DNA from: Paraglaciecola sp.
Lineage (GTDB): Bacteria; Pseudomonadota; Gammaproteobacteria; Enterobacterales; Alteromonadaceae
Length of the DNA stretch: 64,000 nt
Reading direction: 5' to 3'
Assembly: GCA_009993955.1 (NCBI GenBank)
Contig: JAACSL010000009.1
Coordinates: 46,369 to 110,368 of the forward strand
Part shown: piece by piece, positions 50,146 through 63,072 of the stretch
Layout: every line of letters begins with the position of its first letter
Numbering within the stretch: the first letter of the stretch is position 1
Made by a program: the position numbers and the translations under genes
The notes under the pieces: generated by a model
The model's input: only the letters and a program-made list of their open reading frames with translations
Database searches by the model: none
What the model was told of the DNA's origin: nothing

Positions 50146-50463
50146 TTAAGCGCTCAATAGCACACTCAGCAGTAGCGTGGCTAACGCACCCACCACTGCC
50201 CCACCCGCAAAGATCACAAAATGCAGTCGCGGGTTGGGCACAGGTTGTAGCGTTTTTTCTTCAGGTTTGGGCACAGCAAACAACACCTCGCGTTTCACTT
50301 CAAAGGCCACACACAAGGCCATGATGGTCTCCAGCGAGGCGCTACCTTGGTTTTCAACACGCTGAATGGTGCGCAAGTTGACATCACACACCTCTGACAG
50401 CTGCTGTTGCGTCCACTGCTTCGAAAGTCTCAGTGACTTAACGATGTCGCCGCGTAACTCCAT
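50146..50463 (-). CDS. XRE-family helix-turn-helix protein with C-terminal transmembrane anchor
   Basis: IVKSLRLSKQWTQQQLSEVCDVNLRTIQRVENQ is an HTH_3 motif. The C-terminal FVIFAGGAVVGALATLLLSVLL is a TM helix. Confidence 0.75.
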   Translation of the reverse strand: MELRGDIVKSLRLSKQWTQQQLSEVCDVNLRTIQRVENQGSASLETIMALCVAFEVKREVLFAVPKPEEKTLQPVPNPRLHFVIFAGGAVVGALATLLLSVLLSA

Positions 50464-50469
50464 GGCTGT

Positions 50470-50904
50470 TTATGCCCAAAATTTCATAATAAGGCTCACA
50501 GAGCTGTAGCCCACCACGGCGCCTAAAAGCGCTGCGAGAATGATCACCCAAATGGATGTTTTCTTAGCGTTGGGCAGGTAAGCTTTACTCTCTTTTGCCA
50601 CTAATACATCGTTGGCATACAAACTTACCTGCACTTCCCCCGTGGCAAACTTAGCCAAATACACCTCTGCACGATACTGGATCTCACCGACAGTGAAATA
50701 GTGTTGACTGAGTCGACCAAATAACTTGTGTTTAATCGATACAGGATGATTGTTAACGTACATGGTTTCTTTGCCTGACCACGCTGAGCCGTGCATAGAA
50801 ATGTCATTGCCTTGATGATCGAAGTAAAACCAGTAGCCATTTTTCATGCTGACCTGACTCATAGCGGCATCTCTGTTAATGTTGATAGTTTGATTGTCTT
50901 TCAT
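50470..50904 (-). CDS. Hypothetical C-terminally anchored membrane protein
   Basis: 144 aa from the ATG preceded by AAGGAG. It has a beta-rich soluble part and a C-terminal TM (IWVIILAALLGAVVGYSSVSLI). It ends 6 nt before the XRE gene. Confidence 0.55.
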   Translation of the reverse strand: MKDNQTININRDAAMSQVSMKNGYWFYFDHQGNDISMHGSAWSGKETMYVNNHPVSIKHKLFGRLSQHYFTVGEIQYRAEVYLAKFATGEVQVSLYANDVLVAKESKAYLPNAKKTSIWVIILAALLGAVVGYSSVSLIMKFWA

Positions 50905-51030
50905 TTTATGCTCCTTGTTAATAGCCAGCACATTGAAGGTTATTTACCCTTGGGTGAAAACGGCAGATTTACGACAGTCAGGGCAATGGGCGTACGACAG
51001 TCGTGCTGTCGTACACCCCAAAAAGTAAAT

Positions 51031-51059
51031 TTGACAAACCAATCCCAGTCCCTTAACTT
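51031..51059 (+). promoter_or_regulatory. Candidate sigma70 promoter of the AKR-dioxygenase-yeiH unit
   Basis: TTGACA (51031-36), 17-bp spacer, TAACTT (51054-59). The GH31 promoter has the identical architecture. Confidence 0.5.
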
Positions 51060-51077
51060 ATGTCTTATATAAGACAT
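51060..51077. promoter_or_regulatory. Operator-like perfect palindrome ATGTCTTATATAAGACAT
   Basis: 18-bp perfect palindrome beginning immediately after the -10-like hexamer (core TGTCTT from 1 nt after it), 26 nt before the AKR ATG. The same core occurs at 56999-57028 and 62138-62153. Confidence 0.65.
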
Positions 51078-51102
51078 GATTTTATCAAGCGAGAGTATCT
51101 AG

Positions 51103-52068
51103 ATGCCTGATCAGCAAAAGCAAATGCCCAAGGTGGGTTTTGGCCTATGGAAAGTAGCTAAAGAGACTTGTGCAGACGCCGTTTATAACGCGATTAAAGT
51201 GGGTTATCGCCATCTTGACAGTGCCAGCGATTATGGCAACGAGGTGGAAGTGGGCCAAGGAATTCAGCGCGCGCTTGCCGATAAATTATGCCGCCGCGAA
51301 GACCTATGGATCACCTCAAAATTGTGGAATACCTACCACCGCAAAGAGCATGTTGAACCGGCAATACGCAAAAGTTTGCACGATTTACAACTTGATTATC
51401 TAGATCTCTATCTGATTCATTTTCCCATTGCTCAGCCCTATGTCGATTTTAACGACCGTTACCCGCCGGAGTGGATTTTTGATCCCAAGGCTGCTGAGCC
51501 AAAAATGGAAATCGCACCAGTGCCCTTGTACGAAACGTGGCAGGGCATGGAAGCTCTGGTTGAAGCCGGTCTGACCCATAAAATTGGCGTGTGCAACTAC
51601 AATACTGGCCTACTCAATGATTTGATGGCCTACGCAAAGATTAAACCTGCGGTATTACAAGTTGAGTCACACCCTTATCTTACCCAGCAACGTTTGATGC
51701 AATTGGCTCGCGATTACGCCATCGAGGTAACCGCATTCTCCCCGCTGGGTGCTTTGTCTTATTTAGAGTTAGACATGGCAGGGGCACAAGAATCCGTTTT
51801 AGAGCAAGCAGTAGTCAAACAAGCCGCTAAACGCCTAAACAAAACGCCCGCACAAGTGGTTTTACGCTGGGGTGTGCAACGAGGTAACGCTATTGTGCCC
51901 AAGACATCTCGCCCTGAACGCCTTGCAGAAAATTTGGCGATCTTTGATTTTTCCCTCTCAGAGCAAGAAATGGCGGCCATTGATGCATTAAACTGCAACC
52001 GACGTTTTAACGATCCTGGTCAGTTCTGTGCTGCAGCATTTCACAAATTTTATCCTATTTACGATTGA
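51103..52068 (+). CDS. Aldo/keto reductase (xylose-reductase-like subgroup)
   Basis: 321 aa. GFGLWK, the catalytic tetrad context LDSASDYGNE / SKLWN / LIHFP, and LDYLDLYLIHFP. Confidence 0.85.
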   Translation: MPDQQKQMPKVGFGLWKVAKETCADAVYNAIKVGYRHLDSASDYGNEVEVGQGIQRALADKLCRREDLWITSKLWNTYHRKEHVEPAIRKSLHDLQLDYLDLYLIHFPIAQPYVDFNDRYPPEWIFDPKAAEPKMEIAPVPLYETWQGMEALVEAGLTHKIGVCNYNTGLLNDLMAYAKIKPAVLQVESHPYLTQQRLMQLARDYAIEVTAFSPLGALSYLELDMAGAQESVLEQAVVKQAAKRLNKTPAQVVLRWGVQRGNAIVPKTSRPERLAENLAIFDFSLSEQEMAAIDALNCNRRFNDPGQFCAAAFHKFYPIYD

Positions 52069-52076
52069 GGTAAGCC

Positions 52077-53066
52077 ATGGCCACATCAGCAATTCAATAT
52101 GTTAGCGTCGCCAATCAATTGCACTGCAACAACAGCGTTTTTCCCAGTGTGATTGTCAACAATGAAAGTGTGAAAACACTGGCCGAGTGCCGGGATTGGA
52201 TTGCTGAACATCGTGAGGAATTGGAAAGTACCCTACGTGAATCTGGCGCGATTTTATTTCGCGGTTTTCCCATGAATTCTGCAGAAACCTTTGATGAATT
52301 CTCCAGTGCCTTTGGTTACCCCAATTTTACTTATCAAGAATCCTTGTCTAACGCAGTAAGGATCAACTTCACTAAGCGGGTTTTTACCGCCAATGAAGCG
52401 CCCAAAGAAGTCGAGATCTTCTTACATCACGAAATGGCACAAACGCCGATTTCTCCAACTAAACTGTTTTTCTTTTGTAAAACGGCGGCAGAACAAGGGG
52501 GAGCAACACCTTTGTGCCGTTCTGATATGTTGTACGCAGAGTTTGCCCGTCAACAACCAGAGTGGGCAGAACAGTTTGCAAACAAAGGGCTTAAATACAC
52601 CACACAGATGCCCGCTGAAAATGATATCAATTCTGGCCAAGGACGCAGTTGGAAAAGCACTCTAAACGTTGAAAATACGGCTCAAGCAGAAACTAAATTA
52701 ACGGAACTGGGTTACACGTGGACTTGGTTAGACGATGGCAGTTTGCGCGCCACTACGCCAATTTTACCCGCTGTGATTGATATTGGTCAGGGTCAAAAAG
52801 TGTTCTACAACCAACTGATTGCGGCATTCATGGGTTGGAAGGGAGTCAGAGAGAATCCAGCTAAAGCTATCACCTTTGGTGACGGCAGCCATATTCCCAT
52901 CGGCGCTTTGGAACTGATGGTTAAACTGTCTGAAGATTATACCTTTGATGTACCGTGGCAAGACGGTGATATGGCCTTGGTCGATAACTACATTGCCATG
53001 CATGGTCGTCGTCCTTACTCGGGTGAACGTAAACGTCAAGTCTTAGTTGCCTTAGCCATTGATTGA
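52077..53066 (+). CDS. TauD/TfdA-family Fe(II)/2-oxoglutarate dioxygenase (clavaminate-synthase-like subgroup)
   Basis: 329 aa. LHHEMAQ (H-x-E metal ligands), distal IAMHGRRPY (His plus Arg), and GGATPLC. Confidence 0.75.
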   Translation: MATSAIQYVSVANQLHCNNSVFPSVIVNNESVKTLAECRDWIAEHREELESTLRESGAILFRGFPMNSAETFDEFSSAFGYPNFTYQESLSNAVRINFTKRVFTANEAPKEVEIFLHHEMAQTPISPTKLFFFCKTAAEQGGATPLCRSDMLYAEFARQQPEWAEQFANKGLKYTTQMPAENDINSGQGRSWKSTLNVENTAQAETKLTELGYTWTWLDDGSLRATTPILPAVIDIGQGQKVFYNQLIAAFMGWKGVRENPAKAITFGDGSHIPIGALELMVKLSEDYTFDVPWQDGDMALVDNYIAMHGRRPYSGERKRQVLVALAID

Positions 53067-53104
53067 ACAACATTACATAAGCTTATTTTGCTGTAGGTGC
53101 TGAT

Positions 53105-54103
53105 ATGGACAAGGTAAAAACCTTCATACCCGGTATTGTGGTGGCCACCATAACGGGTTTTGCTGCGCTGTTTTTGTCCGAGCATTATGGCGCGCCTGCC
53201 ATGTTATTTGCCCTACTCTTAGGCATTGCCCTTTCGTTTCTATACGAAGAAACCAAATGCAAAACGGGCATCGAATTTACCGCTTGTCATATTCTGCGTA
53301 TTGGCGTTGCCCTGTTGGGTTTGCGCATCGCCTTTGGTGATTTAGCCGCATTGGGCTGGAAAACCGCGCTGGTCCTAATCATCGCCATCGCTACAACCAT
53401 AACCTTTGGCATGTTGGTCGCCAAAGCCTTTGGTTTGAGTAAACGCTTTGGTGTATTGAGCGGAGGTGCTGTGGGTATTTGTGGTGCATCGGCAGCCATG
53501 GCCATTGCCGCTGTATTACCCGAGGGGCCAGAGAAAGAACGCGATACGATTTTGACGGTGATTGGTGTCACGGCTTTATCCACCATTGCCATGGTGTTAT
53601 ACCCCATCATTGCCGGTTTACTCGAGCTTGATCCCACTAGCACCAGCATTTTTCTAGGCGGCACCATTCATGATGTGGCGCAAGTGGTGGGAGCTGGCTA
53701 TTCAGTATCTGAACAAACCGGTGATTTAGCGACCCTGACAAAATTGGTTCGGGTGGCCTATTTGATGCCTGTAGTTTTGTGCATTTTATTTGTGATAAAA
53801 CTGAATTTAAGTAAGCAAAACCAAGCGGGTGAATTGCAAGCTAAGTCGCCTGGTTTACCCGGTTTTTTAATCGCATTTATTGTGTTGATGACTCTAAACA
53901 GTCTGGTCGAACTGCCCAGTCTTGTGACCACCAGTGCCAACGAGTTGTCACGTTTTGCTCTTGTGGTTGCCATTACCGCCATTGGCATGAAATCCAACCT
54001 GCGTCGCCTGTTAACTGTCGGCATTCGCCCCATCTTATTGCTGATCCTCGAAACCCTGTGGATTGCTGGCTTAATTCTGCTTAGCCTACCCTACTTGGCA
54101 TAA
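53105..54103 (+). CDS. yeiH: YeiH family (UPF0324; putative sulfate exporter family) membrane protein
   Basis: 332 aa, ~10 TM. ILRIGVALLGLRI, GGAVGICGASAA, GGTIHDVAQVVGAG. Confidence 0.8.
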   Translation: MDKVKTFIPGIVVATITGFAALFLSEHYGAPAMLFALLLGIALSFLYEETKCKTGIEFTACHILRIGVALLGLRIAFGDLAALGWKTALVLIIAIATTITFGMLVAKAFGLSKRFGVLSGGAVGICGASAAMAIAAVLPEGPEKERDTILTVIGVTALSTIAMVLYPIIAGLLELDPTSTSIFLGGTIHDVAQVVGAGYSVSEQTGDLATLTKLVRVAYLMPVVLCILFVIKLNLSKQNQAGELQAKSPGLPGFLIAFIVLMTLNSLVELPSLVTTSANELSRFALVVAITAIGMKSNLRRLLTVGIRPILLLILETLWIAGLILLSLPYLA

Positions 54104-54481
54104 AACAATCGCTCAGGGCACAAATCCCTCGCCTTCACACCTAAAAACAGTAGATCGGGTAAGCAGGACCAGCAGCGATTGACTGCTTCCCATTGACCCT
54201 ACCATGAATCAAGCAAACAACAGATTTAGACTGGCTAATCGTGCTGGCTAATCGTGTTAAAGCTGAAAAATCATTCTAGGTATGGCCTGCATATTTTCAT
54301 GGGGCTGAAAGACAAAGACACTAACACTCACTCACGCCACCACAGAATCTCGCCTTGTCGATGTCAGGCAATGTGTGTTTGTGGATTGGGCTTGAGCACA
54401 GACGCCCTTGAATGGGTGTGGCAATGCATAGCGTATTAACACAGCGCAACTGGGCACTGCCTGATAGACAAAAGCAAGACA

Positions 54482-54506
54482 GAAAAAAGGCGCCTTGCGG
54501 CGCCCC
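54482..54506 (-). terminator. Rho-independent terminator of the TonB-dependent receptor gene
   Basis: The minus strand reads GGGGCGCC-GCAA-GGCGCC-TTTTTTCT, about 20 nt after the stop. Confidence 0.65.
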
Positions 54507-54526
54507 GGGACACACAAAAACTTAAG

Positions 54527-56884
54527 TTAGAACTTCGCTCTTAACTGCACACCAAAATACCGATCTGCGTCACGTGGGATCTGATAACGGAAACCGTCAC
54601 CAGAATAGGTGGTAATAAAACTCTCATCCGTTAAATTTTTACCGATGAGGGTAATCCGGTAGTCATCGTCGTTAAACGAAAACGCTAAACTGGCATTTAA
54701 AATCGCATAGTCGGGTAATAAATCCACGGCACTTGGCGTTCCGCCTGGTGCACCCGCATAGATTTCGTCAGTGTAGACATAAGAGCTGTTTAAGATCACA
54801 TCCATATCAGCCAGTTCCCAGGTGTATTCGCCTACCACTGAGTATTTTAAGTCTGGCGAGAAGGGAATATCAGCACCTGAGCGACCATCACAGGTAGTGG
54901 AACCCGCTGGACATAAAAACTCATCAATTTCAGCGTCCACGCTGGCAAAACCGCCGGAAAGCGTGAAGTGCTCAGACACTTGCCACAAAAAGTCTGCTTC
55001 GATACCTTGGGTAATCACCGAACCCGCGTTGGTTAAACGGGTGATGGTCACACCATCGAGCAGTTCAGAGTTGTTGGCTTGGAAGCCATCGATGTTGGTG
55101 CGGAACAAGGCTGCGTTGAAAATTAAATCGCGGCTTGCATATTTATAGCCCAATTCATAGGCATCCGACGATTCTTTGCCGATGGGCAATGTATCGTTGG
55201 TATTCATGTTGTAAAACACGTTAAACGCTGGACCTTTGTACCCTTGCGAATACGTTGCATACACCATGCTGCCTTTGCTTAAATCGTATTGTGCGCCTAA
55301 CTTAATGGCAAAATTGGTTTCATCGGTTTTGCCCGAATAATTGGTGGCAGAATCACGCACACCGATACCACCACGACCATATTCATCATTGTTACGACGA
55401 TTATGATTGAAGCTGACTTCATCATCGGTATAACGCATACCAAACAATAAACGTAAGTCTTCGCTTAGGTGATATTTACCGTCACCAAACAAGGCCCAGT
55501 TATCAAACTGGGTGTTCATAAATGCCGTGGCACTGACGATGTCATTGCGGTTACACGAGATTAAATTGTCAGCAATAAACTGGTCGGCTTGTTCGGCAGT
55601 TGGCGAGGTTTGTCCCAGCTTAGTGCTCAAATAATTTTGAATAGTGGCGGTTAAATTACCTGAGCAACTGGCGTCACGGGTAAAGTTACGCTCAGACTGC
55701 TGTTGCCACCAAAAAAAGCCCACTTGATATTCAAGGTCGTTGCCAATCGGTGAGGCGAGACGAAATTCTTGTGAAGTTTGTTTCCAATTCTGAATACCGG
55801 TGTCATGTAATAAAAACGTGCCGGTGGGGATGGGCTGCGTGCCGCCAATCGAAGTAAAGTCCCCTTCGCGCAATTCAGTGTTATCCCAACTGCGGAATGC
55901 CGTGATAGACGTAAACTCATGGCTGCCCATGGGCTTATCAATTTGCATCGAGAATCCGGTGGTTTCATCTAAGGTGCGAGTTTCAAAATCGTGATCGATC
56001 TTGCGTTGATCTAAGTCAAAATCGCCCGCGCCTGAGCTATTGGGCAACGCTTCTGAATTGGGGTGACGGTTACTTGGGGTGAGTTCCAAATCGGCACAGC
56101 AATTGTCGTTTGATTTCATGTTTTCGAAAATGAATAACATGTCAGTGTCACCGGCTGCTTCCAATTTCAACATGGCACGCAAACCTTCTTTGTCGTAACC
56201 ATTGGTCATTTCATTGGTGTATACATTATTAATGTATCCATCATATTGCGACTTCAATACGGTCAGACTACCTTGAGCGTTGTCACTCAACTCCCCTGAA
56301 ACACTGGTTTTTAAGCGGTATTCGTTGCCTTGGTAAAGGCTAATTTCGGCATTGCCTTCAAAGCCTGTGGTGGGTTTTTTAGTGGTAATGTTCACCACAC
56401 CGGCTGAGGCATTTTTGCCAAACAACGTGCCTTGTGGGCCACGTAATACCTCGATACGCTCTAAGTCATACAAATCAATAAACGCTTGCCCTGAGCGACC
56501 TAATACAACTCCGTCAACCACGGTAGAGACACTGGGCTCGGCGGCGACACTGAAAGAAATCGTGCCTATGCCCCGGATAGTGATGGCTGAGTTACGGTTT
56601 GTATTACCTTTACGGAAACTGACAGAAGGGACTAATCCTTGCAAACCTTCGATGTTGGCTGAAAACGCTGCGTTAATTTGATCTTCACGTAATACCGACA
56701 CCGCCACCGGTACTTCATTCAGGTTTTCCACGCGCTTTTGCGCCGTCACCGTGATTTTTTCCAGTAAGCCTTGATCTTCTTTCGGCTCTTCTTGAGCCAT
56801 CGCTGTCGAGCTCAGAGCTACATAGCTAGACATAGCCAATGCAGCGGTGATGCCGCTAGTTAGTTTACTTAAAGTGAATCGCAT
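54527..56884 (-). CDS. TonB-dependent outer-membrane receptor
   Basis: 785 aa. Signal peptide, plug region (ITVTAQKRVENLNEVPVAVSV, RGIGT), and C-terminal ...QLRAKF with a terminal Phe. Confidence 0.9.
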   Translation of the reverse strand: MRFTLSKLTSGITAALAMSSYVALSSTAMAQEEPKEDQGLLEKITVTAQKRVENLNEVPVAVSVLREDQINAAFSANIEGLQGLVPSVSFRKGNTNRNSAITIRGIGTISFSVAAEPSVSTVVDGVVLGRSGQAFIDLYDLERIEVLRGPQGTLFGKNASAGVVNITTKKPTTGFEGNAEISLYQGNEYRLKTSVSGELSDNAQGSLTVLKSQYDGYINNVYTNEMTNGYDKEGLRAMLKLEAAGDTDMLFIFENMKSNDNCCADLELTPSNRHPNSEALPNSSGAGDFDLDQRKIDHDFETRTLDETTGFSMQIDKPMGSHEFTSITAFRSWDNTELREGDFTSIGGTQPIPTGTFLLHDTGIQNWKQTSQEFRLASPIGNDLEYQVGFFWWQQQSERNFTRDASCSGNLTATIQNYLSTKLGQTSPTAEQADQFIADNLISCNRNDIVSATAFMNTQFDNWALFGDGKYHLSEDLRLLFGMRYTDDEVSFNHNRRNNDEYGRGGIGVRDSATNYSGKTDETNFAIKLGAQYDLSKGSMVYATYSQGYKGPAFNVFYNMNTNDTLPIGKESSDAYELGYKYASRDLIFNAALFRTNIDGFQANNSELLDGVTITRLTNAGSVITQGIEADFLWQVSEHFTLSGGFASVDAEIDEFLCPAGSTTCDGRSGADIPFSPDLKYSVVGEYTWELADMDVILNSSYVYTDEIYAGAPGGTPSAVDLLPDYAILNASLAFSFNDDDYRITLIGKNLTDESFITTYSGDGFRYQIPRDADRYFGVQLRAKF

Positions 56885-56998
56885 AGTGTGCTCCAGACAT
56901 TGTCTTTTTTGTAGTGTCTATAATCCCGTTATCTCGCAACAACCTATCCGGCGCCGATGGTGTGCATGCAGCCGTGGTTGAGATAGCTTAGTCGCTGG

Positions 56999-57028
56999 TA
57001 TCTTTTGTCTTATATAAGACAAAAGATA
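56999..57028. promoter_or_regulatory. 30-bp perfect palindrome TATCTTTTGTCTTATATAAGACAAAAGATA (operator-like) between dctP and the TonB-dependent receptor gene
   Basis: Verified base by base. It has the same TGTCTTATATAAGACA core as the other two sites. TATCTT occupies the -10-like position on both strands. Confidence 0.7.
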
Positions 57029-57103
57029 AACTAACTAAGTTGTAAAACAATTGCAAATAGTTTGTTAATTTAATTGCATCACACGGAAACGCGTAAAGAC
57101 TGA

Positions 57104-58141
57104 CTACATTGCAGGGCTGCACTGAGCTACAGCATCATCCAGAAGGGTAAGCCACTGGGGGCCAAAACGCTTAGCAAACCAAGGACGCATTTTTTGACTG
57201 GCATCAACAAAAGCTTTTTTCTCTTCGACTGAGAGCCGATAGATAGTGCCACCGGCGGCTTCAAACAAACGATAAGAGTTGGCTTCTTGGTCTTTAACAT
57301 ATTGATTGGCTGCCTGCGCCTGCAGCGCGAAACCTTGCAAAACTAATTGTTGAATATCAGCCGGTAAACCTTGCCACACGGGTTCAGAAAACCACCAAAG
57401 AGTGGCCATGTATGAATGCCCATCGAGGATCACATACTTCAAATGCTCTTCTAGTTTCGCACCAATAATATCTTGAATCCCGTTTTTACTGCCTTCCACT
57501 ACACCAGTTGCCAACGCCGTGTATAGTTCAGCCCACGAGATGGGGGTGGGATTAGCCCCTAGCTGGCGAACCAACTCTTGTTGAATATCAGCCTCTGTGG
57601 TGCGAATTTTTAAACCTTTCAGATCATCAGGGCTATGCACCGCTTTATCGGTGGTAGCAAAATTTCGCCAGCCCCCCGTATTTGATACACCAAGCAAACG
57701 CAAATTCAGCCCCTGTTGCAGCACTTGTCTGCGCATTTCATCCATTAATGGTCCCCAGAGAACACATTCCGCTTGGCTATCGTCGGTAAAAACATAAGGT
57801 AAATCAATAACCTGCGCGGGGCTGAAAAAGTTACCCGTGCCTCCTGCGGTACTGGGGAAAATCTCTAATACACCCTTTTGCAGATTACCAATGCACTCGG
57901 CCACACTGCCACAAAATTGCCCCGATGGATAAAGTTGCACCTGCACCCTACCCTGACTTTGTTGTTCGACATACTGCTTAAAAACCAGCAGACCAATGTA
58001 GTCTTCGTCTTGAGTGGAAGCCTGAATCGAGGCTTTGATGGTAAATTCGGCATGTTTAACCGTGCTATTGAACAGGCCAATGGCACAGACCATCACTACC
58101 GTGGCGTAGATCAACAGTAAGGCCTTGCGTTTGGTTGTCAT
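57104..58141 (-). CDS. TRAP transporter substrate-binding protein (DctP family)
   Basis: 345 aa from the ATG at 58141 (the longer ORF starts at TTG 58156). N-terminal anchor/signal, then the DctP-like pattern; it lies directly after dctM. Confidence 0.8.
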   Translation of the reverse strand: MTTKRKALLLIYATVVMVCAIGLFNSTVKHAEFTIKASIQASTQDEDYIGLLVFKQYVEQQSQGRVQVQLYPSGQFCGSVAECIGNLQKGVLEIFPSTAGGTGNFFSPAQVIDLPYVFTDDSQAECVLWGPLMDEMRRQVLQQGLNLRLLGVSNTGGWRNFATTDKAVHSPDDLKGLKIRTTEADIQQELVRQLGANPTPISWAELYTALATGVVEGSKNGIQDIIGAKLEEHLKYVILDGHSYMATLWWFSEPVWQGLPADIQQLVLQGFALQAQAANQYVKDQEANSYRLFEAAGGTIYRLSVEEKKAFVDASQKMRPWFAKRFGPQWLTLLDDAVAQCSPAM

Positions 58142-58142
58142 C

Positions 58143-59429
58143 TTAGGCAAACCCAAACCAGCGAGGTAAGGTCATGGTTAGCACCGGGAAATAGGTGATG
58201 AGCAAGATAACCAAGGCTTCAACGGCTAAAAACGGCAGCATTTCTATGGCAATATTTTCGGTTTTTTCCCCTGACACCGAGGCAGCCACAAATAACACTA
58301 AACCCATGGGTGGTGTAGCCAGCCCAACGGTTAAATTCACACACATAATCACAGCAAAGTGCAAGGGGTCGACCCCCAAGGTAATAAAGATCGGCGCCAA
58401 TACTGGCCCTAAAATCAAAATCGCCGGGCCAGCGTCGAGAAACATGCCAATAGCAAACAAAAATAAGTTGATAATCAACAACAGCAACAAGACATTGTCG
58501 GTGATGCCAACTATCTGCTGGGCCATTAAATCGGCCATGCCCGACACCGTGATGATCCAAGCAAAGGTCACGGCCGAACCGACCAATAATAAAATGGTGC
58601 CAGACTGAATGGCTGAGTTAACCAAGATTACAGGCAAGGAACTTGACTTCAGGGTTTTGGTAAAGAACAGGGTAATGATCAAAGCATAACCCGCTGCCAC
58701 TGCTGCAGCTTCAGTGGGTGTGAACACACCAAGCACAATGCCACCGAGCAAGATTACCGGTGTTAACAGCGGCAGAAAGGAGCCTTTAAGGGCTTGACCA
58801 CGCTCTGTCCACGTTGCTTTAAGGTTAGCCACCGGATAATTGCGTTTTTTCGCAATTCGGCTGGTCACCAGCATCAAACCCACACAAATCAATAAACCCG
58901 GTACTATCCCTGCTAAAAACATACCGGCCACCGATACGTTCATAATAAAGGCATATAAAATCATGATCCCAGAGGGCGGAATAATCGGCCCGATCACCGA
59001 TGAAGCCGCGGTCACCGCTGCGGCAAAACGCCGACTGTAGCCGTTTTGTTCCATGGCCGGGATCAGCATTTTGCCTAAGGCTGAGGTATCGGCTACCGCA
59101 GAGCCTGATAAACCTGCAAATAAGACTGAGGACAAAATATTCACTTGCGCCAAACCACCCCGGTAATGACCGATCAGGGTTTGACTAAAACGCACGATGG
59201 ACTGAGTGATGCCACCTTGATTCATGAGTTCACCCGCGAGGATGAAAAACGGTACCGCCATCAAGGGAAATGAATTCATCCCGGAATACAAACGGGTCAA
59301 TAAGGCAGAGAAAAATACTTCGTTGCCATCAATAAGCAAACTGACACCAGGGCCAATCAGTAAAGCAAAAACCACCGGAGTACCCGCCGTGAGTAACAGT
59401 AAAAACACCCAAAAATAACTTAACGACAT
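58143..59429 (-). CDS. TRAP transporter large permease (DctM family)
   Basis: 428 aa, ~12 TM. LMAVPFFILAGELMNQGGI. Confidence 0.88.
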   Translation of the reverse strand: MSLSYFWVFLLLLTAGTPVVFALLIGPGVSLLIDGNEVFFSALLTRLYSGMNSFPLMAVPFFILAGELMNQGGITQSIVRFSQTLIGHYRGGLAQVNILSSVLFAGLSGSAVADTSALGKMLIPAMEQNGYSRRFAAAVTAASSVIGPIIPPSGIMILYAFIMNVSVAGMFLAGIVPGLLICVGLMLVTSRIAKKRNYPVANLKATWTERGQALKGSFLPLLTPVILLGGIVLGVFTPTEAAAVAAGYALIITLFFTKTLKSSSLPVILVNSAIQSGTILLLVGSAVTFAWIITVSGMADLMAQQIVGITDNVLLLLLIINLFLFAIGMFLDAGPAILILGPVLAPIFITLGVDPLHFAVIMCVNLTVGLATPPMGLVLFVAASVSGEKTENIAIEMLPFLAVEALVILLITYFPVLTMTLPRWFGFA

Positions 59430-59430
59430 G

Positions 59431-60075
59431 TCAGTATTGCTCGCGAATGAGGGGCTGTGACCAGGTGCTCAGTTGCATGAGCAGCTTTTCGATGCCCACC
59501 AGCCAAATTGAGCCAAAGACAAAGGGCGTGCACAAGTAAAAATACGCGAGTTTCACTGGCAGTGAAGACGCATATATTTGCCAACCGCCTTGCACAAATT
59601 CAAGGCTTTGCTTAAAAAACAGGCCACTCACTACCAACAACAATAGGGTGATGAGCAAGTTCGATAATTTATATAGGCTAGGTGGTAGCGCGTCAGCAAA
59701 CATATCAATGGAGACATTAAGATTTTCACGGTAAGCCCAAGGTGCAACCAAACAGGCTATCCACACCATAAAAAACTTGGCCAATTCTTCTGTCCAGCCA
59801 AGAGAATTGTTGAGGCCATACCTGAATATCACTTGAGCAATGATCATCACTAACATCAGTGCGAGGAGCACACCAGCCAGATATTTGGCCAGTAAACTGA
59901 CCGCATAATTGAATTTCGCCAGTCCGTTAAGTAGTGGGGCTAACACGATGCAAAGCCCAGAGTAATGTCGTGCATCAGCGCCAATACTGTGTTTATCAAC
60001 ACTAACACTCACTCCAATAGTGACTGATTTGCACGGTGTTACCCAGTTGTTCGGTGTGTTCGACATCTGGGCCAA
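59431..60075 (-). CDS. TRAP transporter small permease (DctQ family); start uncertain
   Basis: 4 TM. FRYGLNNSLGWTEELAKFFMVWIACL. The ATG at 60075 would overlap the GH31 3' end by 74 nt; an alternative GTG lies at about 59946. Confidence 0.75.
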   Translation of the reverse strand: MAQMSNTPNNWVTPCKSVTIGVSVSVDKHSIGADARHYSGLCIVLAPLLNGLAKFNYAVSLLAKYLAGVLLALMLVMIIAQVIFRYGLNNSLGWTEELAKFFMVWIACLVAPWAYRENLNVSIDMFADALPPSLYKLSNLLITLLLLVVSGLFFKQSLEFVQGGWQIYASSLPVKLAYFYLCTPFVFGSIWLVGIEKLLMQLSTWSQPLIREQY

Positions 60076-62074
60076 TGGCTAAGTCGTGACCTTGTTTCAC
60101 AAAAACGGCCATCTCCTGCCAAGCTAGCTTAAGCTTATGGATACGACCACCGCTAAACACTTGTTTGTCAGCAAAAGCTAACCAGTCGCCCTCTGGTAGG
60201 TAAAACTCAACCTCGCCTCCGGGTTGTACGCAGGGTACCACCAAGAGGCTATCACCAAACATAAACTGCAATTCAAAGCCCCAGCTCAAACGTTCCAATG
60301 GGAAAGCCAAGGCCATGGCTCGCATCACAGGCAAACCCGTTTCACTGGCTTGTTGCATGGTGCGATAAATATAAGGCAGTAGTTTGTAGCGCAGTTTTAA
60401 AGCAATATTCACTGCGGCTTCCGCTTCAGGTCCATAACTCCACGGTTCACGTTGACCGATGCCATGCAAACGCATGTGGGCAGAAAAGACCGCGGTTTGT
60501 GACCAGCGTACAAATAATTCTGGATCCCGCATGTCCTTGTAAAAGCCACCCACATCAGTGGCGAAATAAGGAGAACCTGACATGCCCCAAGACAAAGCGC
60601 CACGTATGCTGCCCACTAAACCACCCCAATCGGCTTGAGGATCACCCCCCCATTGGCTGGGATAACGTTGTGAGCCAATCCACGCAGAGCGACTGAATAA
60701 AAACGGCCCAGATTGACAGTAGGCCTCGGCGGCTTGATAGACACAACGGTTGTATAACAAACTATAAATATTGTGCAGGCGCAAACCAGAGTCACCGTTG
60801 TAGGCAAGCATGTTGTCATCTTCTACCTGCTCACCAAAGTCGGCTTTAATCATATCAATACCCAAGTCAAACAAGGGTTTGTGTGATTCTAGCCAAAACT
60901 GAAACGCATCGGGGTGAGTGAAGTCGACGATGCCCGATTCAGGCAGCGGGGTGAGCACTTCGGCAAAGGCACTCATGTCCCATTGGTAACGATAGGCTTC
61001 GCCAGTACGCTTGTCTTTGAGTAACCAGCCCTTGCGCGCCATCTCTGCAAACAAAGGGTTGGCCACTGAAACCAAGGGATACTCCCAAATACAAATTTTA
61101 AAGTTCAGGGCTTTTAGCTGATTAAGCACCGCGGCAGGGTCGGTATAACGCTTTTTGTCCCACTCAAAAGCAAAACGGGTATCGGTGTCCTGCCATGCTC
61201 GGCCGTCTAAGGTGATCACATCACAAGGCATGTGGTGCTCACGTACCGCTTTGGCCGTAGCCAGTAACTCTGGCACATCGCGATAATAGGCTTTGGAGAG
61301 AATCACCCCCAAACTCCAAAATGGTGGTACAGGGGCTTTACCGGTTAATTGAGTGTAGCCTTCGATAATGGCCTGACCATCTTCACCGCGCAAAATAAAC
61401 ACATCCATGGCGGGATCTTCCACGACCAGACTGTAAGCGCGGTTTGACCACGGCGCATACCCAACCGCATGGGTAACCGGTGCGGGTGTGTGCACAAATG
61501 TTCCCCAGCCTTTGGGACTCCAACAAAATGGCGTATTTTTGTAGGATATTTCTGCGTTGACACCCAAGGCATCATGATTGTAGGAGCGCAGCAGTTGCCC
61601 ACGTTTATTCAAGCCCGCCCATTTTTCCCCGAGACCAAAGACCGGCTCTTCTGGCGCAAGATCAAAACTCAGCAACCACCCTTCTGGTACTTTTGCCAAA
61701 GGTGGTAAACGATACTGGCGAACAAAGTGCCCATCGTTTGGTGTGCGTTGGATAAGTGTGTCGCCACAATGTAAAGTAAAGGCAAATGGACGTTTTTGAC
61801 AGCGTAACCGCCACTCGCCACTATGAATAAGCACAAACTCATCTTGATCGTCTATGCGACAAGGCAATTGTGCAGGTAGGCACTGTAACATGCCGTAATC
61901 ATGAAGATTTTGTTTGCCTATTTGCAGCCGAACAGCAAAATCAAAAAACATGAGACTCAAGCTACCTTCAGTCGTCTCAATACTTACCTCAAGACCACTT
62001 GTAGCCAGGCTGGCTTTGCCAATTAGTTCAAGTTGTTTAACCTTATTCCAATTGGGCGAATTGCAGTCGAGCAT
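60002..62074 (-). CDS. Glycoside hydrolase family 31 (YicI-like alpha-glycosidase)
   Basis: 690 aa. The nucleophile region IKADFGE, WGGD, DVGGF, and long collinear similarity to E. coli YicI as recalled. There is no signal peptide. Confidence 0.85.
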   Translation of the reverse strand: MLDCNSPNWNKVKQLELIGKASLATSGLEVSIETTEGSLSLMFFDFAVRLQIGKQNLHDYGMLQCLPAQLPCRIDDQDEFVLIHSGEWRLRCQKRPFAFTLHCGDTLIQRTPNDGHFVRQYRLPPLAKVPEGWLLSFDLAPEEPVFGLGEKWAGLNKRGQLLRSYNHDALGVNAEISYKNTPFCWSPKGWGTFVHTPAPVTHAVGYAPWSNRAYSLVVEDPAMDVFILRGEDGQAIIEGYTQLTGKAPVPPFWSLGVILSKAYYRDVPELLATAKAVREHHMPCDVITLDGRAWQDTDTRFAFEWDKKRYTDPAAVLNQLKALNFKICIWEYPLVSVANPLFAEMARKGWLLKDKRTGEAYRYQWDMSAFAEVLTPLPESGIVDFTHPDAFQFWLESHKPLFDLGIDMIKADFGEQVEDDNMLAYNGDSGLRLHNIYSLLYNRCVYQAAEAYCQSGPFLFSRSAWIGSQRYPSQWGGDPQADWGGLVGSIRGALSWGMSGSPYFATDVGGFYKDMRDPELFVRWSQTAVFSAHMRLHGIGQREPWSYGPEAEAAVNIALKLRYKLLPYIYRTMQQASETGLPVMRAMALAFPLERLSWGFELQFMFGDSLLVVPCVQPGGEVEFYLPEGDWLAFADKQVFSGGRIHKLKLAWQEMAVFVKQGHDLAIGPDVEHTEQLGNTVQISHYWSEC

Positions 62075-62137
62075 GTCTCATTACCTTCAATATTCTGCTG
62101 GGTTATTTAGATTGCAATGCTCACAAAACGCAGCTAC

Positions 62138-62153
62138 ATTCTTATATAAGACA
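62138..62153. promoter_or_regulatory. Third copy of the operator motif (ATTCTTATATAAGACA; 14/16 match)
   Basis: On the minus strand it reads TGTCTTATATAAGAAT, 1 nt after the TAACTT -10 hexamer. It lies 64 nt upstream of the GH31 ATG and 170 nt upstream of the gntR ATG. Confidence 0.6.
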
Positions 62154-62154
62154 C

Positions 62155-62183
62155 AAGTTATAACAGTGTTAATTTTTTGTCAA
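62155..62183 (-). promoter_or_regulatory. Candidate sigma70 promoter of the GH31-dctQMP operon
   Basis: The minus strand reads TTGACA (62183-78), 17-bp spacer, TAACTT (62160-55), identical to the AKR promoter. Confidence 0.5.
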
Positions 62184-62322
62184 TGCACTTAAAGACCACG
62201 GGATTTTTGCTGGAAACGATAGATCGTTAGCCATAACAAAAAAAGAGTTATTGTATAAGACTGCAGGAATAACTATGCTGCAAGGCTTATTTTTACAGGC
62301 AGGCAATGTAGCAGTTTGAACT

Positions 62323-63072
62323 ATGAAAGAAATTCGCTTCGATAATAAGCTCAGTAGCACTGGACCGGTATTCAAACCACTTTACAAACAAGTGGAAGAA
62401 CACATTAAACAACTCATTGTCGAGCAGCGCTGGAAACCGGGTGATATGTTACCAAACGAATTTCAGTTGGCGGCAGAGCTGAATGTAAGCCAAGGCACCA
62501 TGCGTAAAGCCCTAAATAGCCTGACCGATACAAAAGTATTAACCCGAAAACAAGGGGTGGGCACCTTCGTTTCTGAGCACACCGCGCAAAATGGATTATT
62601 TCGATTTTTCCCCATCATCGCTGATGGCAACAATCCTGAACTACCCAAAGCGGAACTGCTGTCCATTGATTCACAAGTACCCGATAAACTGGTTGCCAAC
62701 GCCCTGGAGCTGAGTAACAAAGACAAGGTGATTGTGATGCGCCGCAGACGCATATTAAATGATGAATACTGCATTGCCGAGACAATATACCTGCCCTATG
62801 TGTATTTCAAAAACATCCTTGAGATCACGGACATTCCTCACACCTTGTATCACTTTTATCAAACCCACTTTAACCTGACTGTGCACAGCACCCAAGATGC
62901 GATAAAAGCTGATTTGGCCGATGAGTTAGATGCGCAGCTGATGAACATTGCCGTAGGCGAGCCGATTTTATCCGTGCAACGCACCGTTCATTCTTTGAAT
63001 GGAAAGGCTATGGAGTTTCGCATTAGCCGTTGTAGAAGTGACAAATATCACTATTTGGTGAAGCTCAATTAA
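62323..63072 (+). CDS. GntR family transcriptional regulator, HutC subfamily (UTRA effector domain)
   Basis: 249 aa. PLYKQVEEHIKQLI...W.PGDMLPNEFQLAAELNVSQGTMRKALNSL...VLTRKQGVGTFV, and a C-terminal UTRA-length domain. Confidence 0.88.
   Translation: MKEIRFDNKLSSTGPVFKPLYKQVEEHIKQLIVEQRWKPGDMLPNEFQLAAELNVSQGTMRKALNSLTDTKVLTRKQGVGTFVSEHTAQNGLFRFFPIIADGNNPELPKAELLSIDSQVPDKLVANALELSNKDKVIVMRRRRILNDEYCIAETIYLPYVYFKNILEITDIPHTLYHFYQTHFNLTVHSTQDAIKADLADELDAQLMNIAVGEPILSVQRTVHSLNGKAMEFRISRCRSDKYHYLVKLN

What the first reader, a model, noticed from the sequence alone, without database searches (positions are those of the whole stretch)
51031..63072. Candidate co-regulated glycoside/organosulfonate utilisation locus (AKR, Fe/2OG dioxygenase, YeiH exporter, TonB receptor, GH31-TRAP, GntR)
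Seen in the sequence:
- A + strand unit holds an aldo/keto reductase, a TauD-family dioxygenase and a YeiH-family membrane protein, with gaps of 8 and 38 nt.
- A - strand unit holds GH31-dctQ-dctM-dctP, with overlaps or 1-nt gaps.
- A separately transcribed TonB-dependent receptor and a HutC-type GntR regulator complete the set.
- All three promoter regions carry the same palindrome, so they probably form one regulon.

Established knowledge, as I recall it: oxygenolytic sulfoquinovose pathways combine a GH31 sulfoquinovosidase, an oxygenase that releases sulfite from C6, an aldo/keto reductase that reduces 6-oxo-glucose, and a sulfite/sulfate exporter. This is the sulfo-ASMO pathway of Agrobacterium; I also recall an Fe/2OG-dioxygenase variant reported in a marine Marinomonas. 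DctP-type TRAP systems normally need an anionic group on the substrate, and YeiH-family proteins have been proposed as sulfate exporters in sulfonate degraders.

Inference: the locus may catabolise a sulfo-sugar glycoside, or another anionic alpha-glycoside, taken up across both membranes by a TBDR plus TRAP route. Two details do not fit the known pathway. The GH31 lacks the canonical sulfonate-binding residues by eye. The dioxygenase looks clavaminate-synthase-like (HxE) rather than TauD-like (HxD). It could therefore be a divergent or new pathway.
Basis: partly seen in the sequence, partly recalled or inferred. Interest (0 to 1): 0.8.

Follow-up and report, generated by a model that had tools for sequence, protein, structure and literature searches.

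The report
Sulfoquinovose-glycoside breakdown gene cluster

Summary
Every sequence observation is confirmed: the genes, the gaps and overlaps, and a 14-bp palindrome (GTCTTATATAAGAC) in all three promoter regions.

The organism is a Paraglaciecola. The locus belongs to the published Alteromonadales sulfo-SDO + SqgH sulfoquinovose (SQ) / sulfoquinovosyl-glycerol (SQGro) cluster (Alteromonas macleodii, Nat Commun 2025).

- **GH31:** 61-62% identical to A. macleodii SqgH-type proteins. It keeps all four SqgH substrate residues and the Asp-Asp dyad, and lacks the YihQ RWY motif.
- **Dioxygenase:** 70% identical to an AmSqoD-type enzyme. It has the H-x-E...H triad and the Gln and Trp that bind SQ in the MaSqoD crystal structure.

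Across 80 related genome loci the dioxygenase travels with the AKR (74), YeiH (52), GH31 (46), TonB receptor (38) and GntR (38). The palindrome recurs before the same operons in about 60 loci.

Differences from the characterised clusters:
- a DctPQM TRAP transporter sits where they have a sodium:solute symporter;
- no sulfite dehydrogenase or TauE lies in the window;
- the reductase is xylose-reductase-like, not SquF/SmoB-like.

Verdict: interpretation supported, new member of a known kind, modest interest.

The parts
51031..51036 (+). TTGACA, possible -35 box of the AKR-sqoD-yeiH promoter (inferred only)
   Evidence: Read directly from the sequence. The consensus promoter scan did not report it.
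51062..51075 (.). Operator O1: GTCTTATATAAGAC, exact (extended palindrome ATGTCTTATATAAGACAT), 28 nt upstream of the AKR start
   Evidence: The same site lies upstream of the AKR gene in about 60 related loci.
51103..52068 (+). Aldo/keto reductase, predicted NADPH-dependent 6-dehydroglucose reductase. It is xylose-reductase-like, not SquF/SmoB-type.
   Evidence: - PF00248, E 1e-46.
- Best solved relatives are yeast aldose/xylose reductases, E 7.6e-91.
- Tetrad D39/Y44/K73/H106 read from the sequence.
- Adjacent to the dioxygenase in 74 of 80 loci.
- 69% identical to the Alteromonas cluster's AKR.
52077..53066 (+). Fe(II)/2-oxoglutarate sulfoquinovose dioxygenase, AmSqoD type
   Evidence: - PF02668.
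- PDB 9yut (MaSqoD) E 1.4e-66.
- 70% identical to the AmSqoD-type protein of Alteromonas sp. S015.
- H117/E119/H309, M120, Q122 and W254 conserved.
53105..54103 (+). YeiH/PF03601-family membrane protein, predicted sulfite/sulfate exporter
   Evidence: - PF03601, E 2.7e-66.
- TIGR00698, 143 bits, below its cut-off.
- Follows the dioxygenase in 52 of 80 loci.
- Its counterpart MASE_18000 is called a sulfate transporter in PMC12780224.
54487..54506 (-). Intrinsic terminator of the TonB-receptor gene
   Evidence: GGGGCGCC-GCAA-GGCGCCTT followed by TTTTCTGTCT.
54527..56884 (-). TonB-dependent outer-membrane receptor, predicted SQ/SQGro gate
   Evidence: - Plug and barrel domains.
- N-terminal signal-like sequence.
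- 58% identical to the Alteromonas cluster's receptor.
- The A. macleodii receptor was 107-fold more abundant on SQ.
57007..57020 (.). Operator O2: GTCTTATATAAGAC, exact, 122 nt upstream of the receptor start
   Evidence: Conserved between the receptor gene and the transporter gene in related loci.
57104..58141 (-). DctP-type TRAP solute-binding protein (the longest ORF reaches 58156)
   Evidence: - PF03480; gene call of 345 aa.
- Best solved relative is the isethionate-binding IseP, 8t9t, E 8.6e-40.
- Anion clamp R164/R185/N225/W208 retained.
58143..59429 (-). DctM, TRAP large permease
   Evidence: PF06808, E 1.7e-112. 85-96% identical in the other TRAP-type loci.
59431..60012 (-). DctQ, TRAP small permease (the longest ORF reaches 60075)
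   Evidence: PF04290. Gene call of 193 aa.
60002..62074 (-). GH31 sulfoquinovosidase of the SqgH clade, cytoplasmic
   Evidence: - Three GH31 domains.
- 61-62% identical to A. macleodii SqgH-type proteins; 30% to YicI; 26% to YihQ.
- R300/T375/K410/F511 and D412/D478 present.
- No hydrophobic N-terminus.
62139..62152 (.). Operator O3: TTCTTATATAAGAC (1 mismatch), 65 nt upstream of the GH31 start in the divergent GH31/GntR region
62248..62261 (.). Weak operator-like site TTATTGTATAAGAC (3 mismatches), 62 nt upstream of the GntR start; possible autoregulation, uncertain
   Evidence: At 3 mismatches the count is within chance expectation.
62323..63072 (+). HutC-subfamily GntR regulator, predicted repressor of the three units
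   Evidence: GntR wHTH and UTRA domains. 59% identical to the Alteromonas cluster's regulator. Present in 38 of 80 loci.

Best explanation
The locus is a sulfoquinovose (SQ) / sulfoquinovosyl-glycerol (SQGro) utilisation regulon of the 'sulfo-SDO + SqgH' type.

Proposed mechanism:
1. SQGro, and probably free SQ, released from algal sulfolipid crosses the outer membrane through the TonB-dependent receptor.
2. The DctP protein captures it in the periplasm by its sulfonate group, and DctQM imports it.
3. The cytoplasmic GH31 (SqgH clade) hydrolyses SQGro to SQ and glycerol.
4. The Fe(II)/2-oxoglutarate dioxygenase (SqoD) hydroxylates C6 of SQ. This releases sulfite and 6-dehydroglucose, and turns 2-oxoglutarate into succinate and CO2.
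5. The adjacent aldo/keto reductase reduces 6-dehydroglucose to glucose.
6. The YeiH-family protein exports the sulfite (or sulfate).
7. The HutC-type GntR protein binds the palindrome TGTCTTATATAAGACA in front of all three units and is presumably released by SQ or SQGro.

Shown here:
- gene content and operator sites;
- orthology and residue conservation with characterised enzymes;
- conservation of the gene set and of the operator across genera.

Taken from papers on relatives:
- the enzymatic activities;
- induction by SQ;
- growth on SQ and SQGro.

Inferred:
- the substrate of the TRAP system and of the receptor;
- the role of the AKR and of YeiH;
- repression by GntR and its inducer.
For: 1. 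Known system. In A. macleodii ATCC 27126 the cluster MASE_17990-18035 is induced by SQ and SQGro. AmSqoD releases sulfite and 6-dehydroglucose from SQ. AmSqgH hydrolyses SQGro and PNP-SQ but not PNP-Xyl or PNP-Glc. The TonB receptor rises 107-fold (PMC12780224).

2. GH31 membership.
- P0246 represents a >=90% identity cluster that contains A. macleodii proteins. It carries R302/T377/K412/F513 at exactly the published AmSqgH positions.
- The window protein is 61-62% identical to it and has R300/T375/K410/F511 plus D412/D478.
- YicI has W and a gap at the first two positions.
- The YihQ RWY motif is absent. Identity is 30% to YicI and 26% to YihQ.

3. Dioxygenase membership.
- It is 70% identical to the Alteromonas sp. 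S015 protein, whose H121/E123/H313 match the AmSqoD numbering.
- The lid loop TYQESLSNAVRINFT and the SGQGRSW motif are the same in both, and the mapped positions within them are invariant across the SQ-context loci L001-L067.
- H117/E119/H309, M120, Q122 and W254 match the SQ-binding residues of the MaSqoD crystal structure.

4. Neighbourhood in 80 genome loci. AKR 74, YeiH 52, GH31 46, receptor 38, GntR 38, SorA 37, SorB 36, SSF symporter 34, DctP 16, TauE 15.
- Wherever enough flank is present, GH31 is followed by either an SSF symporter or DctQMP, never both, at the same position.

5. Operator.
- 3 sites at <=1 mismatch in the window against 0.01 expected.
- The same palindrome lies in front of the AKR, receptor and GH31/transporter operons in Paraglaciecola, Alteromonas, Aliiglaciecola and Arenicella.
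- In Marinomonas and Balneatrix it was seen only before the AKR gene.
- Core TCTTATA.AAGA is nearly invariant.

6. DctP. Its best solved relative is the sulfonate-binding IseP. The sulfonate clamp R156/R177/N217/W200 is conserved. The residues that fit the pocket to small isethionate are replaced by smaller ones.
Against: - Nothing was measured for this organism.
- The reference AmSqgH and AmSqoD sequences were reached indirectly, through cluster membership and exact agreement of residue numbering, not by accession.
- The published SqgH substrate residues come from modelling, docking and mutagenesis, not from a crystal structure.
- The dioxygenase is only 36% identical to the crystallised MaSqoD and equally close (37%) to the uncharacterised plant protein At3g21360. 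Its lid loop differs from both.
- The AKR is not of the SquF/SmoB type that was shown to reduce 6-dehydroglucose.
- No sulfite dehydrogenase or TauE lies within the 64 kb.
- All experimentally tested relatives whose locus I could inspect use an SSF symporter, not a TRAP system.
Confidence: 0.85

Rival explanations
1. The locus handles a different anionic alpha-glucoside. One example is a 6-O-sulfated sugar desulfated oxidatively in the manner of the AtsK alkylsulfatase. Another is a sulfoquinovoside other than SQGro, such as a partly deacylated sulfolipid. Either way the end result is the same: 6-dehydroglucose is reduced by the AKR and the sulfur oxyanion is exported by YeiH.
For: - The TRAP system replaces the SSF symporter of the characterised clusters, so substrate range could differ.
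- TonB receptors usually serve larger or scarcer substrates.
- The dioxygenase lid loop differs from that of MaSqoD.
- The YeiH family is annotated as a putative sulfate exporter.
Against: - The dioxygenase shares 70% identity, its lid loop and the SGQGRSW motif with the AmSqoD-type enzyme; AmSqoD itself was shown to act on SQ.
- The GH31 keeps every SqgH substrate residue.
- SSF and TRAP occupy the same slot in otherwise orthologous operons under the same operator. This argues for the same substrate.
Confidence: 0.08
2. This is an ordinary alpha-xyloside or xyloglucan-oligosaccharide locus: a YicI-like alpha-xylosidase plus a xylose reductase, as automatic annotation suggests.
For: - Sources name the GH31 'alpha-xylosidase'.
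- NCBIfam's best hit is the alpha-xylosidase model, at 415 bits, below its 606-bit cut-off.
- The best solved relatives are YicI and fungal xylose reductases.
- CAZy-type HMMs formally place SqgH in GH31_3.
Against: - Only 30% identity to YicI, against 61-62% to SqgH-type proteins. R300 and T375 are SqgH-specific.
- AmSqgH has no activity on PNP-Xyl, and YicI has none on PNP-SQ.
- A neutral xyloside would not explain the DctP-type TRAP system, the SQ dioxygenase or the YeiH exporter, which share one operator.
Confidence: 0.03
3. The dioxygenase is an amino-acid or peptide hydroxylase of the SyrP / clavaminate-synthase kind, unrelated to its neighbours. The clustering is fortuitous.
For: One source names the identical protein 'SyrP protein'. 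There are faint NCBIfam hits to arginine/enduracididine beta-hydroxylases, E 4e-5 to 7e-4.
Against: - Those hits cover about 40-50 C-terminal residues and lie far below their cut-offs.
- No NRPS or biosynthetic genes are nearby.
- The AKR is adjacent in 74 of 80 loci, and the operator is shared.
Confidence: 0.01

Closest known systems
Alteromonas macleodii ATCC 27126 sulfo-SDO + SqgH cluster (MASE_17990-18035; Ma et al., Nat Commun 2025, PMC12780224)
   Same: - Orthologous AKR (69%), SqoD (70%), YeiH (64%), SqgH-clade GH31 (62%), TonB receptor (58%) and HutC-type GntR (59%). Identities are to the near-identical Alteromonas sp. S015 locus.
- The same operator palindrome in front of the same units.
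- A cytoplasmic GH31 without the RWY motif.
   Different: - The inner-membrane importer is a DctPQM TRAP system rather than a sodium:solute symporter.
- No TauE gene and no SorAB sulfite dehydrogenase at the locus or anywhere in the 64-kb window.
- The gene order is rearranged: AKR-sqoD-yeiH is convergent with the receptor, and GntR is divergent from GH31.
Oceanospirillaceae sulfo-ASDO cluster (Marinobacterium aestuarii / Marinomonas ushuaiensis: SqoD, SquF, GntR, TRAP SqoKLM; Ye et al., iScience 2023; MaSqoD structures 9yut-9yux)
   Same: - The same chemistry: an Fe/2OG SQ dioxygenase followed by an NADPH reductase.
- A TRAP importer and a GntR regulator.
- The H-x-E...H triad, and the Gln and Trp that contact SQ.
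   Different: - The dioxygenase is only 36% identical and has a different lid loop.
- The reductase is xylose-reductase-like, not SquF/SmoB-like.
- That cluster has no sulfoquinovosidase, TonB receptor or exporter. [quoted passage not shown]
- Relatedness of the two TRAP binding proteins could not be tested.
Agrobacterium tumefaciens sulfo-SMO (smo) pathway
   Same: The same logic: import the glycoside, cleave it with a GH31 SQase, release sulfite oxygenolytically from C6, and reduce 6-oxo-glucose to glucose.
   Different: - A flavin monooxygenase SmoC/SmoA instead of an Fe/2OG dioxygenase.
- An ABC importer SmoEFGH.
- A YihQ-type (GH31_13) SQase.
- A SmoB-type AKR.
E. coli YicI/YicJ alpha-xyloside locus (GH31_3)
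   Same: YicI is among the closest solved structures for the GH31, E 2.9e-95. The Asp nucleophile, the Asp acid/base, K and F are shared.
   Different: - 30% identity.
- W315 and a gap where SqgH has R302 and T377.
- YicI is inactive on PNP-SQ.
- There are no sulfur-handling genes.
Isethionate TRAP binding protein IseP (Oleidesulfovibrio alaskensis, PDB 8t9t)
   Same: It is the best solved relative of the window's DctP. The sulfonate clamp R156/R177/N217 and W200 are conserved.
   Different: The match is moderate, E 8.6e-40. Pocket residues D77, S95, N98, Y153 and H244 are replaced by V, T, G, G and T. This fits a bulkier ligand (inference).

Membership tests
SqgH clade of GH31 sulfoquinovosidases | GH31 fold with the catalytic Asp nucleophile and Asp acid/base | tested here: met
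   Three GH31 Pfam domains. D412 and D478 align with YicI D416/D482 and YihQ D405/D472.
SqgH clade of GH31 sulfoquinovosidases | Published substrate residues R302, T377, K412, F513 (AmSqgH numbering) | tested here: met
   - The window has R300/T375/K410/F511, and all 11 locus-derived cluster GH31s aligned have the same residues.
- YicI has W, a gap, K and F. YihQ has M, a gap, M and Y.
- So only R and T discriminate.
SqgH clade of GH31 sulfoquinovosidases | Closer to AmSqgH than to GH31_3 (YicI) or GH31_13 (YihQ) | tested here: met
   61.8% identity to the A. macleodii protein OZB97055.1, against 29.6% to YicI and 26.1% to YihQ. No maximum-likelihood tree with all 20 subfamilies was made.
SqgH clade of GH31 sulfoquinovosidases | No signal peptide (cytoplasmic enzyme) | tested here: met
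   The N-terminus MLDCNSPNWNKVKQLELIGK has no hydrophobic stretch. This was judged by inspection only.
SqgH clade of GH31 sulfoquinovosidases | Hydrolyses SQGro and PNP-SQ but not PNP-Xyl or PNP-Glc | not testable with these tools
   Needs an enzyme assay.
YihQ-type sulfoquinovosidases (GH31_13) | Q/E-RWY sulfonate-recognition motif (EcYihQ Q288, R301, W304, Y508) | tested here: not met
   The window has Q295, D298, F301 and F511 at these columns. Overall match to YihQ structures is E 1e-34.
SqoD sulfoquinovose dioxygenases | TauD/TfdA fold with a 2-His-1-carboxylate triad of the H-x-E...H type | tested here: met
   PF02668. H117/E119/H309 align with MaSqoD H115/E117/H308 and AmSqoD H121/E123/H313.
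SqoD sulfoquinovose dioxygenases | SQ-contacting residues of the MaSqoD crystal structure (Q120, W253, M118 backbone, A185 backbone, A89 backbone) | tested here: inconclusive
   - Q122, W254 and M120 are conserved.
- A185/I186 become G187/Q188.
- The 84-93 lid loop (PYIGGAAPRSQ) is replaced by TYQESLSNAVR.
- The backbone contacts cannot be judged from sequence.
SqoD sulfoquinovose dioxygenases | Orthology with a biochemically validated member (AmSqoD) | tested here: met
   - 70% identity to the Alteromonas sp. S015 enzyme, which carries the AmSqoD numbering.
- The lid loop and SGQGRSW motif are the same.
- The neighbours are the same.
SqoD sulfoquinovose dioxygenases | SQ- and 2OG-dependent release of sulfite and 6-dehydroglucose | not testable with these tools
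   Needs an enzyme assay.
SquF/SmoB 6-dehydroglucose reductases | Membership of the SmoB-like AKR group (the SquF marker cluster UniRef50_A0A0K0Y4B2, built on >50% identity to its reference; MaSquF is 52% identical to SmoB) | tested here: not met
   - SmoB structures (7BBY-7BC1) are not among the 60 best PDB matches, all with E <= 2.4e-62.
- The best matches are yeast aldose/xylose reductases, E 7.6e-91.
- SmoB was solved with a Salmonella AKR (4R9O) as the search model.
- A direct alignment was not possible.
Aldo/keto reductase superfamily | Asp-Tyr-Lys-His catalytic tetrad | tested here: met
   D39, Y44, K73 and H106 lie in the motifs LDSASDYGNE, SKLWN and LIHFP. PF00248 matches over the full length.
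DctP-type TRAP transporter | DctP, DctQ and DctM genes together, and the two-arginine/asparagine anion clamp in the binding protein | tested here: met
   PF03480, PF04290 and PF06808 lie in one operon. R164/R185/N225 align with IseP R156/R177/N217.
HutC subfamily of GntR regulators | N-terminal GntR winged helix plus C-terminal UTRA domain, with a palindromic operator | tested here: met
   PF00392 and PF07702. A conserved 16-bp palindrome TGTCTTATATAAGACA. Binding itself was not tested.
sulfo-SDO gene cluster (Alteromonadales type) | Sulfite detoxification genes (SorAB sulfite dehydrogenase, TauE) next to the exporter | tested here: not met
   - No SorA, SorB or TauE homologue lies in the 64-kb window.
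- They are present in 37, 36 and 15 of the 80 loci.
- The paper notes that Pseudoalteromonas clusters also lack sulfite-metabolism genes, so this feature is optional.

The most novel reading that the evidence does not exclude
The TRAP-type version of the cluster, seen in Paraglaciecola, Aliiglaciecola and some uncultured gammaproteobacteria, may not be a simple transporter swap.

Together with the TonB receptor it could take up a different sulfoquinovoside from the symporter-type clusters. Candidates are a partly deacylated sulfolipid or another 6-sulfonated or 6-sulfated alpha-glucoside.

In strains without a sulfite dehydrogenase, the sulfur would then leave the cell as sulfite through YeiH. 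That would give this lineage a distinct ecological role.
Probability: 0.12. Interest if true: 0.5.

Novelty: new member of a known kind. Interest (0 to 1): 0.25.

Why it matters
Sulfoquinovose is made on a scale of about 10 billion tonnes a year. Alteromonadaceae are proposed to be among its main marine consumers (PMC12780224).

This locus adds no new chemistry, but it contributes three things:
- It extends the pathway to Paraglaciecola. No paper in the searchable library mentions that genus together with sulfoquinovose.
- It names concrete, testable uptake candidates: a TonB receptor, and a TRAP system that occupies exactly the slot of the symporter in the characterised clusters.
- It gives a precise, widely conserved operator for the pathway's GntR regulator. 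That operator can be used to find further regulon members and to annotate the many genes now mislabelled 'alpha-xylosidase', 'taurine dioxygenase' or 'SyrP'.

Tried and rejected
- **Finding the A. macleodii proteins directly.** Protein searches list only the best 120 hits, and A. macleodii was not among them. A third search with the A. gracilis GH31, followed by a cluster look-up, reached A. macleodii sequences indirectly. The accessions WP_014951134.1 and WP_014951130.1 were never seen.
- **Supplementary files of PMC12780224.** These would show the gene-cluster figure for other genera, but they are not held. I therefore cannot say whether TRAP-type clusters were already drawn there.
- **Tag-to-gene mapping in the paper.** The paper calls the receptor MASE_18030. 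By synteny in Alteromonas sp. S015 the ten genes would put the symporter at that tag and the receptor at 18035. I could not resolve this.
- **Direct comparison of the AKR with SmoB/SquF, and of DctP with SqoK or the Roseobacter SQ-binding protein.** No sequences were obtainable. Only the indirect PDB ranking is available.
- **Consensus promoter scan.** It gave fewer hits than shuffles and none at the expected places. The -35 box at 51031 is read by eye only.
- **Search for SorAB, TauE or an SSF symporter in the window, and for remnants of them in the 423-nt YeiH/receptor spacer.** Nothing was found.
- **Rfam scan.** No RNA family lies in the locus.
- **Rejected ideas.**
  - Alpha-xyloside locus.
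  - Amino-acid hydroxylase.
  - That H-x-E argues against a sulfonate dioxygenase. It is the SqoD motif.
  - That the adjacent LysR gene (63162 to beyond 64000) belongs to the cluster. It is not conserved next to it in other loci.

Full report
**1. Observation**

Plus strand:
- AKR 51103-52068
- TauD-family dioxygenase 52077-53066
- PF03601/YeiH-family protein 53105-54103
- The gaps between them are 8 and 38 nt.

Minus strand:
- GH31 60002-62074
- DctQ, DctM and DctP down to 57104
- These are joined by an overlap and 1-nt gaps.

A TonB-dependent receptor lies at 54527-56884 (-). A GntR+UTRA regulator lies at 62323-63072 (+). The receptor gene ends in a strong intrinsic terminator at 54506-54487.

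The palindrome GTCTTATATAAGAC is exact at 51062 and at 57007, and has one mismatch at 62139. Each site lies in a promoter region. That is three hits at <=1 mismatch against 0.01 expected by shuffling.

An identical dioxygenase is on record from a Paraglaciecola MAG, and the nearest genome loci are Paraglaciecola.

Upstream lies the histidine operon with its leader, then a DUF3667 gene and a small HTH gene pair. The locus therefore sits in ordinary chromosomal context.

**2. What the proteins resemble**

| Protein | Best solved relatives |
|---|---|
| Dioxygenase | 9yut, the Marinobacterium aestuarii SQ dioxygenase MaSqoD (E 1.4e-66); Arabidopsis At3g21360 (E 5e-65) |
| GH31 | YicI-type enzymes (E about 1e-97); YihQ sulfoquinovosidases only E 1e-34 |
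| AKR | yeast aldose/xylose reductases (E 7.6e-91) |
| DctP | isethionate-binding TRAP protein IseP (E 8.6e-40) |

**3. What is already published**

- Ye et al. 2023 described the sulfo-ASDO pathway in Oceanospirillaceae: SqoD, the reductase SquF, a GntR regulator and a TRAP system, with no sulfoquinovosidase.
- Lee et al. 2026 solved MaSqoD. The triad is H115/E117/H308, and SQ is held by Q120, W253 and backbone groups.
- Ma et al. (Nat Commun, December 2025) showed that Alteromonas macleodii grows on SQ and SQGro using the cluster MASE_17990-18035. That cluster holds:
  - AmSqoD, which is 34% identical to MaSqoD;
  - a GH31 of a new clade, SqgH, which lacks the YihQ Q/E-RWY motif, uses R302/T377/K412/F513 and is inactive on xyloside and glucoside;
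  - a 'sulfate transporter';
  - a two-component sulfite dehydrogenase;
  - a TonB receptor induced 107-fold.

**4. Membership tests**

*GH31*
- I reached A. macleodii GH31 sequences through a third protein search and a cluster look-up.
- The representative of that >=90% cluster (P0246, 688 aa) has R, T, K and F at exactly positions 302, 377, 412 and 513.
- A named A. macleodii member is 98.7% identical to it.
- The window GH31 is 61-62% identical to these proteins, 30% to E. coli YicI and 26% to YihQ.
- It has R300/T375/K410/F511 and the catalytic D412/D478.
- At the YihQ R301/W304/Y508 columns it has D298/F301/F511.

*Dioxygenase*
- It is 70% identical to that of Alteromonas sp. S015. That strain's GH31 is 97.7% identical to the A. 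macleodii-type representative.
- The S015 dioxygenase carries H121/E123/H313, the AmSqoD numbering.
- Both proteins share the lid loop TYQESLSNAVRINFT and the SGQGRSW motif. The positions mapped within these are invariant across the loci in SQ context.
- H117/E119/H309, M120, Q122 and W254 match MaSqoD.

**5. Gene neighbourhood**

In 80 genome loci around close homologues of the dioxygenase (58-86% identity), these neighbours recur:

| Neighbour | Loci (of 80) |
|---|---|
| AKR | 74 |
| YeiH | 52 |
| GH31 | 46 |
| TonB receptor | 38 |
| GntR | 38 |
| SorA | 37 |
| SorB | 36 |
| Sodium:solute symporter (SSF) | 34 |
| DctP | 16 |
| TauE | 15 |

Two main layouts exist:
- **Alteromonas/Pseudoalteromonas type:** receptor, SSF, GH31, (TauE), GntR, AKR, SqoD, YeiH, (SorAB).
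- **Paraglaciecola type, as in the window:** AKR, SqoD, YeiH, (SorAB), receptor, DctP, DctM, DctQ, GH31, GntR.

Every GH31 with enough flank is followed by either SSF or DctQMP, never both. I read this as a like-for-like transporter replacement.

The window has no SorAB, TauE or SSF anywhere in its 64 kb. The two closest genome loci (L001 and L002) also lack SorAB at this position.

**6. Regulon**
- The palindrome recurs upstream of the AKR operon, the receptor gene and the GH31/transporter operon in about 60 loci from Paraglaciecola, Alteromonas, Aliiglaciecola and Arenicella.
- In a Marinomonas locus and in Balneatrix it was found only upstream of the AKR gene.
- It is absent from loci where the dioxygenase sits in an unrelated context.
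- The consensus from 109 distinct sites is TGTCTTATATAAGACA, with a nearly invariant core.
- This is a strong phylogenetic footprint for the HutC-type regulator. Binding, and the inducer, are inferred.

**7. Transport**
- DctP keeps the domain-II clamp that binds the sulfonate of isethionate in IseP. R156/R177/N217/W200 correspond to R164/R185/N225/W208.
- The residues that close the IseP pocket on a two-carbon ligand (D77, S95, N98, Y153, H244) are V, T, G, G and T here.
- This fits a bulkier sulfonate, but it is only an inference.

**8. Differences that remain**
- The AKR is not of the SmoB/SquF type. SmoB structures are absent from the 60 best PDB matches. The 6-dehydroglucose reductase role rests on adjacency (8-nt gap, 74 of 80 loci) and on the chemistry.
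- All experimentally tested relatives whose loci I could inspect are of the symporter type.
- No paper in the library mentions Paraglaciecola together with sulfoquinovose.
- A 2026 review calls SQ uptake by aquatic bacteria largely unknown.

**9. Verdict**
- The locus is a Paraglaciecola member of the published Alteromonadales sulfo-SDO + SqgH system, in a TRAP-transporter layout without local sulfite oxidation.
- It is not a new pathway.
- Its modest value lies in the uptake candidates, the defined operator and the correction of misleading automatic names.

Noticed in passing
window 46390-47442 (+): A class IV aminotransferase gene (PF01063) sits inside the histidine operon between hisA (45557-46291) and hisF (47566-48339). 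The same arrangement appears on several metagenome contigs of this organism.
   Followed up: partly
window 40351-40466 (+): Histidine operon leader (Rfam RF00514, 52.6 bits), just upstream of hisG at 40537.
   Followed up: no
window 50146-50931 (-): A small gene pair lies directly upstream of the cluster: a 105-aa HTH_3 (XRE-type) protein and a 153-aa protein with no Pfam match. It could be a toxin-antitoxin-like or mobile remnant at the cluster boundary.
   Followed up: no
window 54104-54526: This 423-nt non-coding spacer between the convergent yeiH and receptor genes contains a tandem 13-nt duplication (ctggctaatcgtg x2, about 54232-54257). Other Paraglaciecola carry sorAB and/or a TrkA_N-domain gene at this position, so it may be a deletion scar. 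No sequence remnant was found.
   Followed up: partly
L002 (NZ_JBGQOM010000002.1, labelled Flavobacterium sp. W21_SRS_FM6): This assembly carries the complete cluster at 75-96% amino-acid identity to the window, in the same order. That is implausible for a Flavobacterium. The genome is probably mislabelled or contaminated with a Paraglaciecola.
   Followed up: no
L072, L075-L078 (Pseudomonadales / gammaproteobacterial MAGs): Dioxygenases 58-63% identical to the window's enzyme sit without the AKR. L072, the one aligned in detail, has nearly the same lid loop. Their neighbours are a luciferase-like monooxygenase, a GFO/IDH/MocA oxidoreductase and a fatty-acid desaturase. In L068, L071, L073 and L074 the AKR-dioxygenase pair lies near a cytochrome P450 gene instead. 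These contexts are unexplained.
   Followed up: partly
PDB 1y0z / At3g21360 compared with window 52077-53066: The uncharacterised Arabidopsis protein At3g21360 keeps the HHEMAQ motif, the Trp and a GGA-APR lid loop like that of MaSqoD. It is as close to the bacterial SQ dioxygenases (35-40% identity) as the two bacterial types are to each other. It might be a plant SQ dioxygenase.
   Followed up: no
window 51103-52068: The closest solved relatives of this bacterial AKR are fungal xylose/aldose reductases (E about 1e-91), well ahead of the other top matches listed. Its evolutionary origin was not examined.
   Followed up: no
L009, L011, L013, L017, L020 (P. mesophila, P. chathamensis, P. polaris and relatives): In these species AKR-sqoD-yeiH (followed by sorAB in all but L020), with its operator, lies apart from any GH31, TRAP or receptor gene within 10 kb. 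A 72%-identical GH31 exists elsewhere in P. polaris. The regulon can therefore be split across the genome.
   Followed up: partly
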